64,000 nt of DNA from Bacteroidia bacterium (GTDB lineage Bacteria > Bacteroidota > Bacteroidia > M30B66): NCBI GenBank assembly GCA_965279035.1, contig OZ257142.1, forward strand, positions 1,536,001-1,600,000, in the 5' to 3' direction. The notes under the pieces were generated by a model. That model made no database searches. It saw nothing but the letters and a program-made list of their open reading frames with translations, and was not told the origin of the DNA. Shown here piece by piece: positions 536 to 60,846 of this stretch. Position 1 is the first letter of the stretch. Each line of letters begins with the position of its first letter. The position numbers were made by a program, and so were the translations under genes.

Positions 536-1330
536 ATGTCTGTATCCAACGAAATTAGGCAAGTACAAGTAATACGCTATATCACTCCTTTGCGCGAAGG
601 TGGCTCATTACCTGCTTTAGCCGAAGCCGATGATGGATTTAAATATGTTCTTAAATTCAAAGGAGCTGGACATGGTGTAAAAGCACTCATTGCCGAATTT
701 ATTGGAGGTGAAATAGCACGTATCCTCGGCTTGAAAATTCCTGAATTGGTTTTTGCTCAACTCGATGAAGCGTTTGGACGCACCGAAGCTGATGAGGAAA
801 TTCAAGATTTATTACAAGGAAGCCGTGGACTTAATTTAGGCATGCATTTTTTATCCGGTGCTGTTACGTTTGATCCTGTAGTAACTGAATTAGATGGTTT
901 GTTAGCTTCTAAAATTGTTTGGTTGGATGCATTTCTTACTAATGTTGATCGCACAGCTAAGAACACCAATATGCTTATCTGGCATAAAGAATTATGGTTA
1001 ATTGATCATGGTGCAACCTTATTTTTTCATCATTCATGGGACACTTGGGAAAAGCATGCGCAAAGTCCATTTACGTATATCAAAGAACATGTTTTACTTT
1101 CTCGTGCAGAACAATTAGAATCAGTTGATAAATTATTTAAAGGAATTTTATCGAACGAAATACTACATGATTTAGTTGAGAAAATACCTGAAGAATGGTT
1201 GCAATGGGAGGGAAGCGGACTCAATCCCGAACAGACAAAAGCCGTTTATTTTCAGTTTTTGACGATACGATTAGCACATTCATCCACTTTTGTAAAAGAA
1301 GCCCTCCATGCAAGAGCCACTGGTGTATGA
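536..1330 (+). CDS. HipA-like Ser/Thr kinase (HipA_2 type)
   Basis: REGGSLP loop, YVLK, catalytic NVDR..NTNML and LIDHG motifs; followed by DUF3037. Confidence 0.85.
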   Translation: MSVSNEIRQVQVIRYITPLREGGSLPALAEADDGFKYVLKFKGAGHGVKALIAEFIGGEIARILGLKIPELVFAQLDEAFGRTEADEEIQDLLQGSRGLNLGMHFLSGAVTFDPVVTELDGLLASKIVWLDAFLTNVDRTAKNTNMLIWHKELWLIDHGATLFFHHSWDTWEKHAQSPFTYIKEHVLLSRAEQLESVDKLFKGILSNEILHDLVEKIPEEWLQWEGSGLNPEQTKAVYFQFLTIRLAHSSTFVKEALHARATGV

Positions 1331-1691
1331 ATATTCGGTAATCCGCGTCCTGCCTCAGGTTGAACGTGAGGAATTTTTCAATGTAGGCTTAGTCCTTTTT
1401 TGCAAGCGTCGAAAATATATCCGAATGGCATTTCAGTTCGATGAAGCCAAATTTTCTGCCTTCCAATCAGAACTCACTGCAGAACAGATTTTATCGAATT
1501 TACAGGCATTTGAGCGAATTAGCAGAGGCGATTCTGATGCTGGTCCGATCGCTCAAGAAGAACCAGCAGAGCGTTTTCGTTGGTTAACAGCCGTTAGAAG
1601 TTCCTGTATTCAAACATCCCGTCCTCATCCCGGTTTAAGCATTCATTTGGATGAAACATTCGATAAACTATTCGAAGAATTAGTGAGTTAA
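1308..1691 (+). CDS. DUF3037 domain protein
   Basis: YEYSVIRVLP.VEREEFFNVG and RFRWLTA.RS..IQTS.PHPG motifs; overlaps the kinase stop. Confidence 0.85.
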   Translation: MQEPLVYEYSVIRVLPQVEREEFFNVGLVLFCKRRKYIRMAFQFDEAKFSAFQSELTAEQILSNLQAFERISRGDSDAGPIAQEEPAERFRWLTAVRSSCIQTSRPHPGLSIHLDETFDKLFEELVS

Positions 1692-12682: not shown

Positions 12683-14053
12683 CACACCCGTCCAAGACGT
12701 TTGTATAACGAAAATACAATCCTGATTTGATGCGAGATTACTCATCAAAGAACGCTCTTTTGAAAATTAAACCCTCTATAATTTAAAAAAGGGACATTTG
12801 TAATTCCAGTTTATCAATTTCGTCATCATCTAAAAAGGGTTTATCAAGCCATTTTTTGAGGTCAATTTTCACAAAGAGATTTAATCGAATAAAGGACACC
12901 AAATTTGAGAGGTGCCAAGAGTGTTTTGCTTCCTTTTGAAGTGTCTTTAAAAGCAGTATGGTGATTAGTGCTGTCCAAATCTGTATCAGAACAGCATTCA
13001 TGCTGGTTCCTATGAAAGACTTGATTTTCAGGTGTGTTTTGATCTCCTTGAAGAACGATTCGATGCTCCATCTACGTTTATATAGTTCTGAAATGGTCGA
13101 TGCTGTCCAAGAAAAATTGTTTGTAAGAAGTTCAAGATATATCTGTTGTTCTTCATCCCAGATCTGAACCATTCGGAGCTTTTGCGGGTATTTTTCTTTT
13201 GATTGAGGTAAACTCAAAAAGCCTTTCCAGTCGTATTGCAAGTCTGGATTTGCTTCATCGGTTGGGCTCTTAGTTCGCTCATAAAGTTCAAACTGAATGT
13301 TTTCTTTTCCTCGAATAACAAAGAATACTCCTTGTTCATCTAATTTTCTCATCCAGTTAAAATCGACATATCCTCTATCAGCTACAACAATGCTTCCTGT
13401 GGGAAATTCAATATCATGTGCTGCATTTACATCGTGCTTTTTGCCATCACTCAAATCAGCAAAAACGGGCATACAGCCGTCAAAGTCAAGGACTGTGTGA
13501 AGTTTTATAGCTCCCTTCTTCTTTCGAAATAGTGCCCAGTCGAACACTTTAAGACAAAGGTCAATCGTGGTTGAATCGAGCAGATAGATTTTACGTTTGG
13601 GAAGCAGCTTTCGGCTTGTTTTTAAGGTTGATTCAAACTGCTCATACAAGTTAAAATACATCGCTTGAAACAGCTCCCAGTTGCGATGTTGGTTATTATA
13701 TGCCAACGATGATCGCCTCATGGCTTTTGACACTCCCAGATGATTTAAATCGCCTGTTGCTGATCGCATTCCATTGCAAACGTCATTTAAGCTATTAGAC
13801 TTGGAAAACTGGCAAAAAACCATTGTCACAAAGTGAGACCAAGCATCATTGCCTTTACAATGTTTATTGGACTCAAACTTTTCTACTAGTTTATTGAAAG
13901 AATCTCGCTTAATTTTTTGGAATATCTGAGCAAATAATGTGATCTTCATGCCGGAGTTGGTTTATGTTTTTGTGTCGTAACTCAAACATACCGGATTTAA
14001 TCCGGACCAACTCTATTTTTTTACCCTATTTTAAAACGTCTTGGACGGGTGTG
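12683..14053 (-). mobile_element. IS4-family insertion sequence, 1371 bp, complete
   Basis: Perfect 20-bp terminal IRs CACACCCGTCCAAGACGTTT / AAACGTCTTGGACGGGTGTG; 9-bp target duplication ATAATTAAT at 12674-12682 and 14054-14062. Confidence 0.95.
12783..13949 (-). CDS. IS4-family DDE transposase (DUF4372 + DDE_Tnp_1 type)
   Basis: LDSTTI, ADRGY, Y..RW.IE.FFK (YREK) motifs. Confidence 0.95.
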   Translation of the reverse strand: MKITLFAQIFQKIKRDSFNKLVEKFESNKHCKGNDAWSHFVTMVFCQFSKSNSLNDVCNGMRSATGDLNHLGVSKAMRRSSLAYNNQHRNWELFQAMYFNLYEQFESTLKTSRKLLPKRKIYLLDSTTIDLCLKVFDWALFRKKKGAIKLHTVLDFDGCMPVFADLSDGKKHDVNAAHDIEFPTGSIVVADRGYVDFNWMRKLDEQGVFFVIRGKENIQFELYERTKSPTDEANPDLQYDWKGFLSLPQSKEKYPQKLRMVQIWDEEQQIYLELLTNNFSWTASTISELYKRRWSIESFFKEIKTHLKIKSFIGTSMNAVLIQIWTALITILLLKTLQKEAKHSWHLSNLVSFIRLNLFVKIDLKKWLDKPFLDDDEIDKLELQMSLF

Positions 14054-58547: not shown

Positions 58548-59282
58548 ATGCGCCGTATCGAAATCATTACTCCGCAAAACGTTCCCATCCTGTATCAGCT
58601 CGCATCGGTGCGTGAGCGCATGTTGGCTTTCTTTCTGGATGCCTTGATTTTGCTAATTTTTCTCTACTTTCTCTACTTTGTGTGCATATCAACTTTTGGA
58701 GAAAACTCATTGATGTTTGTTTTATATGTAATCATTTTTCCCATTGCATTCTTCTATTCTTTGGCTTTCGAAGTGTTTAATCACGGTCAATCCATTGGCA
58801 AACGTGCAATGCAAATTAAAGTTGTCAAACTAACAGGTGTCGAAATTAGCTTGTCGGATTATCTTTTACGTTGGGCTTTCCGTTGGATTGATCTCTGGGG
58901 ATCGCTTGGTTCTATTGCTGCTTTGCAAGTAAGTTCTTCGAATAAAGGTCAACGCATTGGCGATTTGTTGGCCGATACAACGGTGGTTCGCTTACGCGCT
59001 GATTTTTCTGTATCACTAAATGATTTGCTAGCAATTAAAAGCACATCTGATCACGAGGTGATTTATCCTGAAATACGTAGGATGAAAGAAGAAGAAATGT
59101 TACTGGTAAAGTCGACGCTTGATCAGTATCGACGATTCCCGAATGAAGCACATAAAGAAGCCTTAATTCTGATTGCCAATAGTGTTGCTAAACGCATTGA
59201 ATTGGAACAAATTCCCAAGGATAAACAGGCATTTCTCATTCGAGCATTAACCGATTATGTAACGGTAACGCGATCGGCTTGA
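58548..59282 (+). CDS. RDD family protein
   Basis: R..AF.LD, GQSIGK, QRIGDL.A.T.V. Confidence 0.9.
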   Translation: MRRIEIITPQNVPILYQLASVRERMLAFFLDALILLIFLYFLYFVCISTFGENSLMFVLYVIIFPIAFFYSLAFEVFNHGQSIGKRAMQIKVVKLTGVEISLSDYLLRWAFRWIDLWGSLGSIAALQVSSSNKGQRIGDLLADTTVVRLRADFSVSLNDLLAIKSTSDHEVIYPEIRRMKEEEMLLVKSTLDQYRRFPNEAHKEALILIANSVAKRIELEQIPKDKQAFLIRALTDYVTVTRSA

Positions 59283-59381: not shown

Positions 59382-60008
59382 TTAATTCATTTGATTCTTA
59401 GATATTAACCAAATCTTAATATTTTCTATAAACTCAGGAATTGGCATAAAATCAATATCAGAATGAGAAAATCCATCTTTTATTTTTTCATCAAATAAGT
59501 TTGCCATAAAATCATTGAAATTATACCAAATTTTTGCAGTGCTTTTTGCTCCTTTATAGTTGACTGTTTCTACAAACCAATCACGAACAGCTCTTACAAC
59601 TTCCTGAGGTTCATTTTTATGAGATTTTATATCGAAGCCATTGATATCTGAAAATGCTTTCATATATCGATAACTCTCTTTCTCTAATATTAAAAACCGT
59701 TTTCCGCTATGAGCAATTCCTGAATATAGGCGACATCCGAAATCAATTCCAAGTTCAAAAGGCATATTTAACCTATAATATTCTTTCTTTTTGATTGATT
59801 GTATTCTAGAAATATCATGAATACTGAACTTTGATTCTGCAATTAAGTTTTTGATTTTCTCAATTCTAGGTATGCCAGAATCGGAATTTTCTTTTGCTAT
59901 TCTTGGCTCAAAATTATGATATAGAATTGTAAAAAGTAAGGTTCTTAGTAATGGTAAATATTCGTTATCAAATGGGCAATTAATAAATACGTTTTTTTCA
60001 TATTCCAT
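59382..60008 (-). CDS. Nucleoside 2-deoxyribosyltransferase/TIR-like Rossmann-fold protein
   Basis: VFINCPFD, SIHDISR, RLNMPFELG, SDI.G.D...H motifs. Confidence 0.6.
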   Translation of the reverse strand: MEYEKNVFINCPFDNEYLPLLRTLLFTILYHNFEPRIAKENSDSGIPRIEKIKNLIAESKFSIHDISRIQSIKKKEYYRLNMPFELGIDFGCRLYSGIAHSGKRFLILEKESYRYMKAFSDINGFDIKSHKNEPQEVVRAVRDWFVETVNYKGAKSTAKIWYNFNDFMANLFDEKIKDGFSHSDIDFMPIPEFIENIKIWLISKNQMN

Positions 60009-60011
60009 AAA

Positions 60012-60248
60012 CTAAGTGTTTTTATCTTTAAGAGGATTTGGATCATTTCCATGACTATCTTTTCTTTCTATGGTGCCATCTTTTTTATGAATGTATAGCT
60101 CAGATTCTTGGTTCTTACTAATTTCACGAGCATATTCTACTGCTTCTCTTTTAATTTCAAAACTTTTAGAAGCTTTTTTTGCTCCCCCTTTTGTTACATT
60201 CCAACCTCCATTTCTAGAAGGAACAACGTGATGTGTTTTTCTTGACAT
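60012..60248 (-). CDS. DUF2188 domain protein
   Basis: HVVP...GW.V...G...AS..F.....A...AR......EL.IH..DG.I....S.G.DP; ATG 60248; TAAATTTG promoter element at 60267-60274. Confidence 0.85.
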   Translation of the reverse strand: MSRKTHHVVPSRNGGWNVTKGGAKKASKSFEIKREAVEYAREISKNQESELYIHKKDGTIERKDSHGNDPNPLKDKNT

Positions 60249-60507
60249 AACTTTAAAATATTCACTCAAATTTAAGAATTATTCAAGTCATAAATAAACT
60301 AAGCTATGTTTCCGATTGATTGTTAATAAATATTCGATAAATGGATCCAAAAAGTAAACGTTGAACGAGTGAATTGATCAAATGAATTGGTATTTTACTT
60401 ATTGTGCACTAATATGGCATGGATAGCAAGTGATTATTCTAAGAATTAAATCAATTTCAAATTCATTTTACATAAAAAATTTGATTTGAAGAATTCTAAA
60501 TTCCTCA

Positions 60508-60846
60508 CTATCTCCCAAAACACAAGTCATACGCCGATTCTAAGCAAGTTAATTCTTGTATTAATTCCGACATTTTGCATTTCAATCCTGCTCGACCAAA
60601 TTTCACAATATCAAATCCATCTATTTGTATGAGAATATCATTTTCTACTTGTATAAATTCCCATTTTGCATGAATCGAAACTTCTAATAAACGATCATAG
60701 GCAATGACATCTCCGCCTTGATTAAAAGAATAGGAAAATGTAAAAAGGAGCACCTTGTTAGTCGATTCAATTGGATCTTTAATGATGCTTTTACAAGCTG
60801 CTAAATTCATTTCATTGCAATAGAAACATTCATAAAAGCCAATCAA
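60508..60846 (-). CDS. Hypothetical protein (start uncertain)
   Basis: 112-aa ORF, TTG start 4 nt after the upstream stop. Confidence 0.3.
   Translation of the reverse strand: MIGFYECFYCNEMNLAACKSIIKDPIESTNKVLLFTFSYSFNQGGDVIAYDRLLEVSIHAKWEFIQVENDILIQIDGFDIVKFGRAGLKCKMSELIQELTCLESAYDLCFGR

What the first reader, a model, noticed from the sequence alone, without database searches (positions are those of the whole stretch)
59382..60274. Low-GC two-gene islet DUF2188 + NDT/TIR-like enzyme: candidate undescribed defence or TA system
Seen: own TAAATTTG promoter element, DUF2188 (78 aa), a 3-nt gap, then a 208-aa protein with VFINCPFD, HDISR and NMPFELG motifs. Spot counts give 14/60 GC at 59401 versus 22/60 at 58801, and the islet sits among core genes with no mobility gene. 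Known: the N-x-x-x-E-L-G helix carries the catalytic Glu of nucleoside deoxyribosyltransferase/TIR-like nucleotide-cleaving folds used as immune effectors; DUF2188 is uncharacterised. Inference: a small sensor or antitoxin controls a nucleotide/NAD-depleting effector. No cyclase, Argonaute or Thoeris partner is present, so it matches no system I recognise.
Basis: partly seen in the sequence, partly recalled or inferred. Interest (0 to 1): 0.75.

Follow-up and report, generated by a model that had tools for sequence, protein, structure and literature searches.

The report
Small protein paired with TIR enzyme
A two-gene cassette found in many unrelated bacteria pairs a small uncharacterised protein with an enzyme shaped like the NAD-destroying immune enzymes of bacteria, and probably works as a self-contained toxin-and-keeper anti-phage switch, though no activity has been measured.

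Summary
In detail: DUF2188 (78 aa, 60012-60248), a 3-nt gap and a 208-aa protein (59382-60008), minus strand, 29% GC against 40% in the flanking genes. The larger protein has no Pfam, NCBIfam or PADLOC match. Its model has the TIR/NDT fold (Z 11-13), and its invariant F8, R79, N81 and E85 reproduce the NAD-pocket pattern of the Cap12-type TIR of bacterial STING. It is therefore better read as a sensor-less Cap12-like TIR than as a deoxyribosyltransferase. DUF2188 lies directly upstream in 80 of the 80 closest genome loci (at least 18 phyla). No third gene is conserved, and only 11-17 of 80 loci have a defence or TA neighbour. Complex prediction gives weak support for binding (0.58, best control 0.01). 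DUF2188 is not partner-specific: it also heads CBASS operons and stands alone in phages, and a sister clade of the enzyme uses other small basic proteins. Best reading (0.5): DUF2188 binds and gates a TIR NADase toxin in a TA-like abortive-infection module. No description of the pair turned up in ten literature searches. Toxicity, NADase activity and phage defence are untested.

The parts
60267..60274 (-). TAAATTTG, candidate Bacteroidota -7 promoter element, 18 nt before the DUF2188 ATG
   Evidence: sequence; position plausible (consensus recalled), but the motif is not above chance in the window (53 found, 84 expected)
60012..60248 (-). DUF2188 protein, 78 aa, basic (pI 9.7); beta-beta-beta-alpha-beta-beta model; proposed keeper or gate of the TIR enzyme
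   Evidence: PF09954 E 3e-22; PADLOC PDC-S16 E 1e-33; phrog_3220; model pLDDT 83.7; pI
59550..60008 (-). TIR/NDT-fold domain of the 208-aa protein (residues 1-153), Cap12-like, with invariant F8, R48, D65, R79, N81, E85, G87, D126
   Evidence: model pLDDT 88.6; VIA Z 12.9 MilB, 12.5 IL-1RAcP TIR, 11.8 NDT, 11.3 SfSTING; conservation in 104 of 104; Atlas and Pfam leads to PF10137
59382..59549 (-). C-terminal three-helix extension (residues about 154-208), acidic in most homologues, no assigned family
   Evidence: secondary structure; near-invariant F, G, E, W positions; median pI 4.5 in 65 rows; only repeat-driven or non-significant PDB hits
60508..60846 (-). 112-aa ORF inside the same low-GC stretch; not part of the conserved module
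   Evidence: no significant Pfam, PADLOC, NCBIfam or PHROG hit, no plasmid match, no homologue in any of the 85 loci then held

Best explanation
A self-contained, horizontally moved two-gene module that works like a type II toxin-antitoxin or abortive-infection switch. The 208-aa protein is a Cap12/Pycsar-like TIR enzyme that has an intact NAD pocket but no cyclic-nucleotide sensor domain, only a short acidic helical tail. The co-translated basic DUF2188 protein binds it and keeps it from forming the self-associated active state. Loss, titration or displacement of DUF2188 (phage infection, translation shut-off, stress) lets the TIR cleave NAD+ with Glu85 and arrests the cell. Shown by computation: fold, conserved pocket residues, gene linkage, lack of a third gene. 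Inferred: NAD+ as substrate, direct binding, the inhibitory direction, the trigger, the anti-phage role.
For: Fold: TIR/NDT, Z 12.9 (MilB, rmsd 2.9, 130 aligned), 12.5 (IL-1RAcP TIR, 3.2, 136), 11.3 (SfSTING, 3.8, 124); SPARTA and other TIRs head the Foldseek list, none at E<=0.001. Pocket: SfSTING uses F6, R78, N80, catalytic E84 and helix residues F83/F85/L87/L89 (PMC9402430, passages); this protein has F8, R79, N81, E85 and F84/L86/I88/F90 in the same spacing, and F8, R79, N81 and E85 are invariant in 104 of 104 diverse homologues. The start offsets of the structural alignments put F8 on SfSTING F6 and MilB F17; Phe rather than Tyr there goes with ribose/NAD substrates (PMC11204291 section 11; PMC4081090 passages). 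Linkage: DUF2188 directly upstream in 80 of 80 loci, median gap 3 nt, 63 of 73 at 20 nt or less, at least 18 phyla, no third conserved gene, GC below flanks in 73 of 78. Distance matrices of the partners correlate beyond phylum (rho 0.36, within-phylum permutation mean 0.19, p 0.001; 62 of 65 rows). Charge: median pI 10.4 for DUF2188, 5.5 for the enzyme, 4.5 for its tail. Complex prediction: weak support, 0.58 against best control 0.01, runs agree in at least 91% of contacts, partner pLDDT at least 77; the mark was reached by 116 of 157 solved complexes and 2 of 215 mismatches, but at 0.60 or under by only 18 of the 157 and both mismatches (ticket, result). Direction: the enzyme gene failed my full-length test in 7 of 80 loci and is split by an insertion in Sinorhizobium L086 while DUF2188 stays open; DUF2188 is fused to an annotated antitoxin beside a BrnT-like toxin and to DUF2442, and was proposed as a HicB-like minimal antitoxin (PMC13621843 section 9).
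Against: No activity measured. DUF2188 is promiscuous: 452 plasmid and 26 phage records against 16 and 0 for the enzyme; it is the first gene of CBASS operons and of a canonical-TIR operon, stands alone in phages and is fused to phasins and membrane proteins. The window's DUF2188 is as like unlinked copies (42-58%, 10 examined) as linked ones (30-63%, median 46). A sister clade of the enzyme has unrelated small basic ORFs upstream (4 of 6 plasmid records examined, of 16) or is fused to other domains. DUF2188 has no recognised DNA-binding domain and I saw no conserved operator upstream. Cap12-type TIRs need oligomerisation to be active, so a sensor-less one may be silent by default and need an activator rather than an inhibitor. 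Only 11 clear and 6 ambiguous of 80 loci have a defence or TA gene among the nearest neighbours scanned, with no matched background. The broken enzyme genes may be assembly errors, and the longer gene is expected to break more often.
Confidence: 0.5

Rival explanations
1. DUF2188 is a generic accessory at the head of defence operons (or a small defence gene of its own), and the TIR protein is a stand-alone effector that senses a phage protein directly through its tail. Alternatively DUF2188 is the sensor or activator that clusters the TIR, for example on nucleic acid, rather than its inhibitor.
For: DUF2188 heads CBASS operons in Roseovarius and Agrobacterium and a TIR operon in Phaeobacter, each divergent from an HTH or HTH/IrrE gene, as also reported in bioRxiv 2022.04.27.489752 and 2022.03.30.486325 (passages); PADLOC carries it as PDC-S16 (reading the S as single-gene candidate is recalled); the partner is interchangeable in the sister clade; single-protein TIR systems triggered by phage proteins exist (PMC11350192, passages); Cap12-type TIRs need clustering.
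Against: Linkage within the clade is complete (80 of 80) and tightly coupled, with no other gene retained; partner distances correlate beyond phylum; the complex prediction passes weakly (0.58 against 0.01; counts as above).
Confidence: 0.27
2. A Thoeris-like signalling pair: the TIR makes an ADPR-type signal and DUF2188 is the effector that binds it.
For: A preprint calls a DUF2188 gene in one Thoeris island a putative effector (10.64898/2025.12.03.692087, passage); two-gene TIR plus effector is the Thoeris layout (section 5).
Against: The enzyme matches no ThsB model and does not align with the ThsB of L081 (hhalign probability 0.2%, single-sequence template); its nearest named family is the NAD-depleting Cap12/Pycsar type, which that preprint set aside as effectors; a 78-aa protein with no catalytic or membrane domain is a poor killer; DUF2188 persists after the enzyme is broken.
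Confidence: 0.08
3. Not a conflict system: a MilB/DNPH1-like nucleotide N-glycosidase for pool sanitising or stress, with a small nucleic-acid-binding helper.
For: The top structural match is MilB, tied within 1 Z with TIRs and close to NDT/DNPH1; most loci sit among housekeeping genes, one between thyA and a folA-like gene (L059); conservation is high (40-57% identity across phyla).
Against: Patchy spread, unrelated insertion sites, GC below flanks in 73 of 78 loci, flanking direct repeats in 7 loci; neighbours include Gabija, Thoeris, AbiH, AbiO/Nhi and type I RM; relatives are fused to TIR_2/SEFIR, FGE-sulfatase and NDT domains; the R-x-N-x-x-x-E pocket follows Cap12.
Confidence: 0.12

Closest known systems
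Cap12 / Pycsar TIR effectors (PF10137; SfSTING, PDB 7UN8)
   Same: TIR fold (Z 11.3, rmsd 3.8, 124 aligned); F, R-x-N-x-x-x-E pocket and alternating hydrophobic alpha-C pattern; nearest named Atlas clusters at 0.81-0.84, a lead only; weak PF10137 hits in 7 of 104 homologues
   Different: No STING, cNMP-binding or SAVED sensor domain, no cyclase in the operon, no PF10137 match for this protein; carries a 55-aa helical tail and a small upstream partner
Nucleoside 2'-deoxyribosyltransferase / MilB / DNPH1 N-glycosidases (PF05014)
   Same: Same flavodoxin-like fold, Z 11.8-12.9; N-x-x-x-E-L motif aligns with an NDT-annotated domain, not significantly
   Different: No PF05014 match; Phe, not Tyr, in strand 1 in 104 of 104, so not deoxy-specific like NDT/DNPH1 (MilB also has Phe); mobile cassette context
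Type II toxin-antitoxin modules (HicAB, BrnTA)
   Same: Small gene first, near-abutting bicistron, solo insertion among core genes; DUF2188 fused to an annotated antitoxin in one prophage and reported HicB-N-like
   Different: Toxin would be a TIR NADase; the small protein is basic and has no recognised DNA-binding domain; my fold searches did not confirm the HicB likeness
Thoeris (ThsB TIR plus effector) and single-protein TIR systems of E. coli (TIR-V, VI, IX)
   Same: Stand-alone TIR-fold protein in a short operon; occasional defence-island location (one locus beside Thoeris)
   Different: No ThsB or TIR_2 match for this protein; no known effector; DUF2188 is not named in the passages read of PMC11350192
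PADLOC PDC-S16 and DUF2188 operons under CapH/CapP control
   Same: Same DUF2188 family (E 1e-33); prior link to defence
   Different: The operons named there carry cyclases, CBASS or hypothetical proteins whose sequences I did not check; no conserved CapH/CapP here

Membership tests
Cap12/Pycsar TIR effector (PF10137) | Profile match above the curated cut-off | tested here: not met
   No PF10137 hit for the window protein at E<=1; 7 of 104 homologues hit weakly, best E 4.7e-4; 4 of 104 hit a PADLOC TIR effector model, best E 0.003
Cap12/Pycsar TIR effector (PF10137) | TIR fold with NAD-pocket residues F, R, N and catalytic E | tested here: met
   Fold Z 11.3 to 7UN8; F8, R79, N81, E85 invariant in the spacing of F6, R78, N80, E84. 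Residue equivalence is inferred from spacing and alignment offsets; S10, W33, F37, L47 were not mapped, and D110 may be D121 or D126
Cap12/Pycsar TIR effector (PF10137) | Fused cyclic-nucleotide sensor and a cyclase in the operon | tested here: not met
   Only a 55-aa helical tail; no third conserved gene in 80 loci; no CBASS or Pycsar cyclase among the neighbours scanned
Cap12/Pycsar TIR effector (PF10137) | Oligomerisation-dependent NADase activity | not testable with these tools
   Needs biochemistry
NDT / DNPH1 (PF05014) | Flavodoxin-like fold with catalytic Glu on the helix after strand 3 | tested here: met
   Z 11.8 (6EVS), 12.9 (MilB); E85 lies in helix 77-95 after strand 61-65
NDT / DNPH1 (PF05014) | Strand-1 Tyr that enforces 2'-deoxy specificity; profile match | tested here: not met
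   F8 in 104 of 104; no PF05014 hit; role of the Tyr
Type II toxin-antitoxin | Conserved, coupled two-gene operon | tested here: met
   80 of 80 loci, median gap 3 nt
Type II toxin-antitoxin | Direct protein-protein binding | tested here: inconclusive
   Weak support, 0.58 against best control 0.01; at 0.60 or under the mark was reached by 18 of 157 solved complexes and 2 of 215 mismatches
Type II toxin-antitoxin | Toxicity of one gene, rescue by the other | not testable with these tools
   Needs cloning
Type II toxin-antitoxin | Autorepression through an antitoxin DNA-binding domain and operator | tested here: inconclusive
   No HTH or RHH found (weak Arm-DNA-bind hit, E 0.009, below cut-off); no conserved upstream motif seen by eye
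HicB-like antitoxin | HicB N-terminal fold | tested here: inconclusive
   Best VIA Z 5.6 (AcrIF5); HicB3 at Foldseek E 1.7; 5JN6 not among the rows shown; likeness is reported
Thoeris | ThsB-type TIR | tested here: not met
   No ThsB model hit in Pfam or PADLOC for the protein or 104 homologues
Thoeris | Signal production and a signal-activated effector | not testable with these tools
   DUF2188 is called a putative effector once in a preprint, untested in the sections read
Anti-phage defence system (general) | Enrichment next to known defence genes | tested here: inconclusive
   11 clear and 6 ambiguous of 80 loci among 261 nearest neighbours of 90 aa or more (108 of them also by PADLOC); no background control, flanks of 6 kb at most
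PADLOC PDC-S16 | HMM match | tested here: met
   E 9.5e-34 over 74 of 75 positions

The most novel reading that the evidence does not exclude
An undescribed, phylum-spanning family of sensor-less Cap12-like TIR NADases controlled directly by a small protein partner (DUF2188 in one clade, an unrelated small basic protein in the sister clade) rather than by a cyclic nucleotide: a TIR-toxin type II TA or abortive-infection system. It would give DUF2188 its first molecular function and suggest why the same protein heads CBASS and other defence operons, namely as a portable gate or infection sensor.
Probability: 0.4. Interest if true: 0.8.

Novelty: new variant of a known kind. Interest (0 to 1): 0.62.

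Why it matters
Bacterial TIR NADases of the Cap12/Pycsar type are switched on by a fused sensor that binds a cyclic nucleotide. This family keeps the pocket residues but has no such sensor and no cyclase, and travels with a single 78-aa protein, so it must be controlled in another way. It is large (2395 clusters at 90% identity; 3056 representatives at 50%), unannotated in Pfam, NCBIfam and PADLOC, and under 900 bp, so it is easy to test. It also offers a direct handle on DUF2188, which recurs at the head of defence operons and in phages without a known function.

Tried and rejected
Sequence searches of the enzyme against PDB and Pfam, PADLOC, NCBIfam and PHROGs gave nothing significant; Foldseek against PDB and viral models gave no hit at E<=0.001, only TIR/NDT rows below it. 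No match in phage genomes. Profile comparison with single canonical TIR or ThsB sequences failed. DUF2188 fold searches were inconclusive. No natural DUF2188-TIR fusion was found (both searches scored only about 8000 candidates, so this is weak); P0194 is an out-of-frame chimera and was not counted. A third conserved gene, tRNA-site integration (one tRNA within 300 nt and one within about 500 nt of the pair in 80 loci), an RNA component in the window and a conserved terminal repeat were looked for and not found. The careful tree did not finish; the quick tree is quoted, without bootstrap, midpoint-rooted, and leaves out the 7 non-full-length loci. The 112-aa ORF was rejected as a member of the module. 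The source names of cluster members could not be looked up, the metagenome and viral contig collections were not searched, and Burroughs and Aravind 2020, cited as linking DUF2188 to defence, is not held: it may already mention this pairing. Table S1 and Figure 1 of the Thoeris preprint (29 predicted effector types) and the supplements of the other papers were not seen and could list a TIR plus DUF2188 configuration.

Full report
Observation. The small one is DUF2188 (PF09954, E 3e-22; PADLOC PDC-S16, E 1e-33). The large one has no significant match in Pfam, PADLOC, NCBIfam or PHROGs. GC is 0.293 for the pair, about 0.40 for the flanking RDD and T9SS-sorted genes and 0.362 for the window; the spot counts are exact, but four or more other stretches of the window are as low. 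The low-GC stretch continues to about 60900 and holds an orphan 112-aa ORF. TAAATTTG lies 18 nt before the ATG; the motif class is rarer than chance in the window (53 against 84), so only its position speaks for a promoter. No tRNA, repeat or Rfam RNA accompanies the pair. The T9SS domain suggests a Bacteroidota host (inference).

The enzyme. It belongs to a large, well-conserved and unnamed family: 2395 proteins at E<=0.001 among 2532 candidates and 3056 representatives at 50% identity. The model (pLDDT 88.6, pTM 0.89) has a five-strand alpha/beta domain at residues 1-153 and a three-helix tail. Structure search puts the domain among TIRs and NDT-like N-glycosidases, which tie: MilB Z 12.9 (rmsd 2.9, 130 aligned), IL-1RAcP TIR 12.5 (3.2, 136), NDT 11.8 (2.8, 122), SfSTING 11.3 (3.8, 124), with receiver domains at about 10. 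Foldseek lists SPARTA and plant TIRs and DNPH1 first, none at E<=0.001. Sequence evidence points to the Cap12/Pycsar type: the nearest named Atlas clusters carry PF10137 (0.81-0.84, a lead only) and 7 of 104 homologues hit it weakly. The best evidence is the pocket. SfSTING binds NAD with F6, R78, N80 and catalytic E84 and dimerises through F83, F85, L87 and L89 (PMC9402430, passages). This protein has F8, R79, N81, E85 and F84, L86, I88, F90, and F8, R79, N81 and E85 are invariant in 104 of 104 diverse homologues. The start offsets of the structural alignments put F8 on SfSTING F6 and on MilB F17. Tyr at that place gives NDT and DNPH1 their deoxy specificity, whereas NADase TIRs and MilB have Phe (PMC11204291 section 11; PMC4081090 passages). 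The equivalences are inferred from spacing and offsets, because the tools gave no residue-level superposition. What is missing is the fused sensor and the cyclase. Longer relatives are fused to FGE-sulfatase, TIR_2/SEFIR and NDT domains (12 hits among 8000 candidates scored).

The pairing. All 80 have a DUF2188 homologue directly upstream on the same strand; the median gap is 3 nt, and 63 of 73 full-length cases are within 20 nt. They span at least 18 phyla as labelled on the tree. No third gene is shared beyond close relatives, and the pair is lower in GC than its flanks in 73 of 78 loci with enough flank, median -0.087. Seven loci have direct repeats of about 30-280 nt on both sides. Partner distances correlate (rho 0.34 in 65 rows; 0.36 against a within-phylum permutation mean of 0.19, p 0.001, in 62 rows); this shows joint inheritance, not contact. 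The quick tree separates two groups (SH-aLRT 99, midpoint root): one holds the window, all 73 full-length loci, the Sphingobium plasmid copy, which also follows DUF2188, and three longer proteins of unknown context; the other holds four plasmid copies preceded by unrelated small basic ORFs, and most fused forms. Of 16 plasmid records I examined 6: two with DUF2188 and four with the other ORFs. So 80 of 80 is a property of one clade, and a small basic upstream partner is seen in all 86 contexts examined.

Defence context. I scanned 261 nearest neighbours of 90 aa or more (of 301 called, up to two each side) with Pfam and 108 of them with PADLOC. Eleven loci have a clear defence or TA neighbour: L007 (MTES_1575 nuclease), L013 (HEPN plus nucleotidyltransferase), L017 (Gabija), L026 (type I methyltransferase), L032 (DarG-like, type I RM), L037 (AbiO/Nhi), L045 (Phd/YefM), L049 (DUF3644, PDC-S19), L075 (HTH-IrrE), L080 (AbiH, CapP-like) and L081 (Thoeris). 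Six more are ambiguous (L006, L011, L012, L031, L038, L062). The rest lie among housekeeping or unassigned genes. That is a real but modest association with no background control, and it resembles solo TA cassettes more than island-bound systems (inference).

DUF2188. The model is beta-beta-beta-alpha-beta-beta (pLDDT 83.7) with no clear structural match (best Z 5.6). A 2026 paper reports likeness to RPA3313 and, without significance, to the toxin-inhibiting N-terminal domain of HicB, and proposes a minimal antitoxin with no toxin found (PMC13621843 section 9). It is basic (median pI 10.4) while the enzyme (5.5) and its tail (4.5) are acidic. It is much more widespread than the enzyme on mobile elements, 452 plasmid and 26 phage records against 16 and 0. 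In the 12 contexts I opened it heads two CBASS operons and one canonical-TIR operon, is fused to an annotated antitoxin beside a BrnT-like toxin, precedes the split enzyme in Sinorhizobium, and otherwise stands alone or before hypothetical genes. It is also fused to phasins, membrane proteins and DUF2442. The complex prediction gave weak support: 0.58 (runs 0.61, 0.58, 0.55) against a best control of 0.01, at least 91% contact agreement and partner pLDDT of at least 77. That mark was reached by 116 of 157 solved complexes and 2 of 215 mismatches, but at 0.60 or under by only 18 of the 157 and by both mismatches, and the counts hold only roughly for my alignments. I found no solved DUF2188 relative by sequence, so a pass from memory is unlikely.

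Mechanism. The most likely reading (0.5) is a TA-like abortive-infection module in which DUF2188 binds the sensor-less TIR, perhaps through the acidic tail, and holds it inactive until infection or stress removes it, after which E85-dependent NAD+ cleavage arrests the cell. Fold, pocket, linkage and isolation are shown computationally; substrate, binding, direction of control, trigger and phage defence are inferred. The direction rests on thin evidence: gene order, the antitoxin fusions, and enzyme genes that fail a full-length test in 7 of 80 loci plus L086 while DUF2188 stays open, which gene length and assembly errors could also produce. The main rival (0.27) is that DUF2188 is a generic leader of defence operons or an activator, which fits its promiscuity and the need of Cap12-type TIRs for clustering. 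A Thoeris-like signal and effector pair (0.08) and a housekeeping nucleotide glycosidase (0.12) fit less well.

Prior art and novelty. Ten searches were run. DUF2188 appears in 13 papers; I read passages of three, section 9 of a fourth, the outline and sections 5 and 14 of the Thoeris preprint, and only the listing of the other nine. They link DUF2188 to defence in general, to CBASS and CapH/CapP operons and once to Thoeris; none of what I read describes this enzyme family or the pair. Passages of PMC11350192 describe other TIR systems. Burroughs and Aravind 2020 is not held, preprint supplements are closed and other supplements were not opened, so an earlier computational mention cannot be excluded. 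The protein works like a Cap12-type TIR but fails membership (no profile match, no sensor, no cyclase), is not an NDT by its strand-1 residue, and meets only the genetic criteria of a type II TA. Verdict: a real, widespread and apparently undescribed module, a new variant of a known kind, interest 0.62.

Noticed in passing
window 536-1691 (+): Two overlapping ORFs (264 and 127 aa) match PADLOC PDC-M66A and PDC-M66B (E 4e-23, 3e-13), a second candidate defence or TA pair; the reading as HipA-like kinase plus DUF3037 is recalled.
   Followed up: partly
window 60508-60846 (-): Orphan 112-aa ORF (100 aa from its first ATG) in the same low-GC stretch, 5 nt downstream of the T9SS-sorted gene; no family, plasmid or locus match.
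   Followed up: partly
L002-L005, just upstream of about 5980: In the sister clade the enzyme follows small, very basic ORFs unrelated to DUF2188; three share a DGVxxxxxxxKPxxF motif and two carry an RxAxTGR[YF] motif. They may be a second partner family.
   Followed up: partly
L091:3501-3725, L092:3001-3237, L095:2995-3216: DUF2188 is the first gene of two CBASS operons and a TIR operon, each divergent from an HTH or HTH/IrrE regulator.
   Followed up: partly
L088:2629-3222: DUF2188 is fused to the C-terminus of an annotated antitoxin next to a BrnT-like toxin in a mycobacterial prophage.
   Followed up: no
L086:3720-5200: In a Sinorhizobium plasmid the enzyme gene is split by an insertion carrying a 165-aa ORF while DUF2188 is intact; four Sinorhizobium records match only residues 32-144.
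   Followed up: partly
L006, L012, L014, L026, L028, L029, L078, within 400 nt of the pair: Direct repeats of about 30-280 nt flank the cassette, in L012 a duplicated start of a methyltransferase-like gene; a hint that the pair moves between repeats. The stop codon region of L023 resembles an integron attC site (recalled, not tested).
   Followed up: partly
L059:4752-6720: The cassette sits directly after thymidylate synthase and before what reads as the start of dihydrofolate reductase (second name recalled from the sequence).
   Followed up: no
P0283, P0286, P0289, P0290, P0292; P0284, P0285, P0288, P0291: DUF2188 fused to phasin domains and to a hydrophobic, probably membrane, protein, which points to uses outside defence.
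   Followed up: no
window 12783-13949 (-): A 389-codon ORF with higher GC3 than its neighbours and a homologue in L070; it reads like an IS4-family transposase (name recalled), 45 kb from the pair.
   Followed up: no
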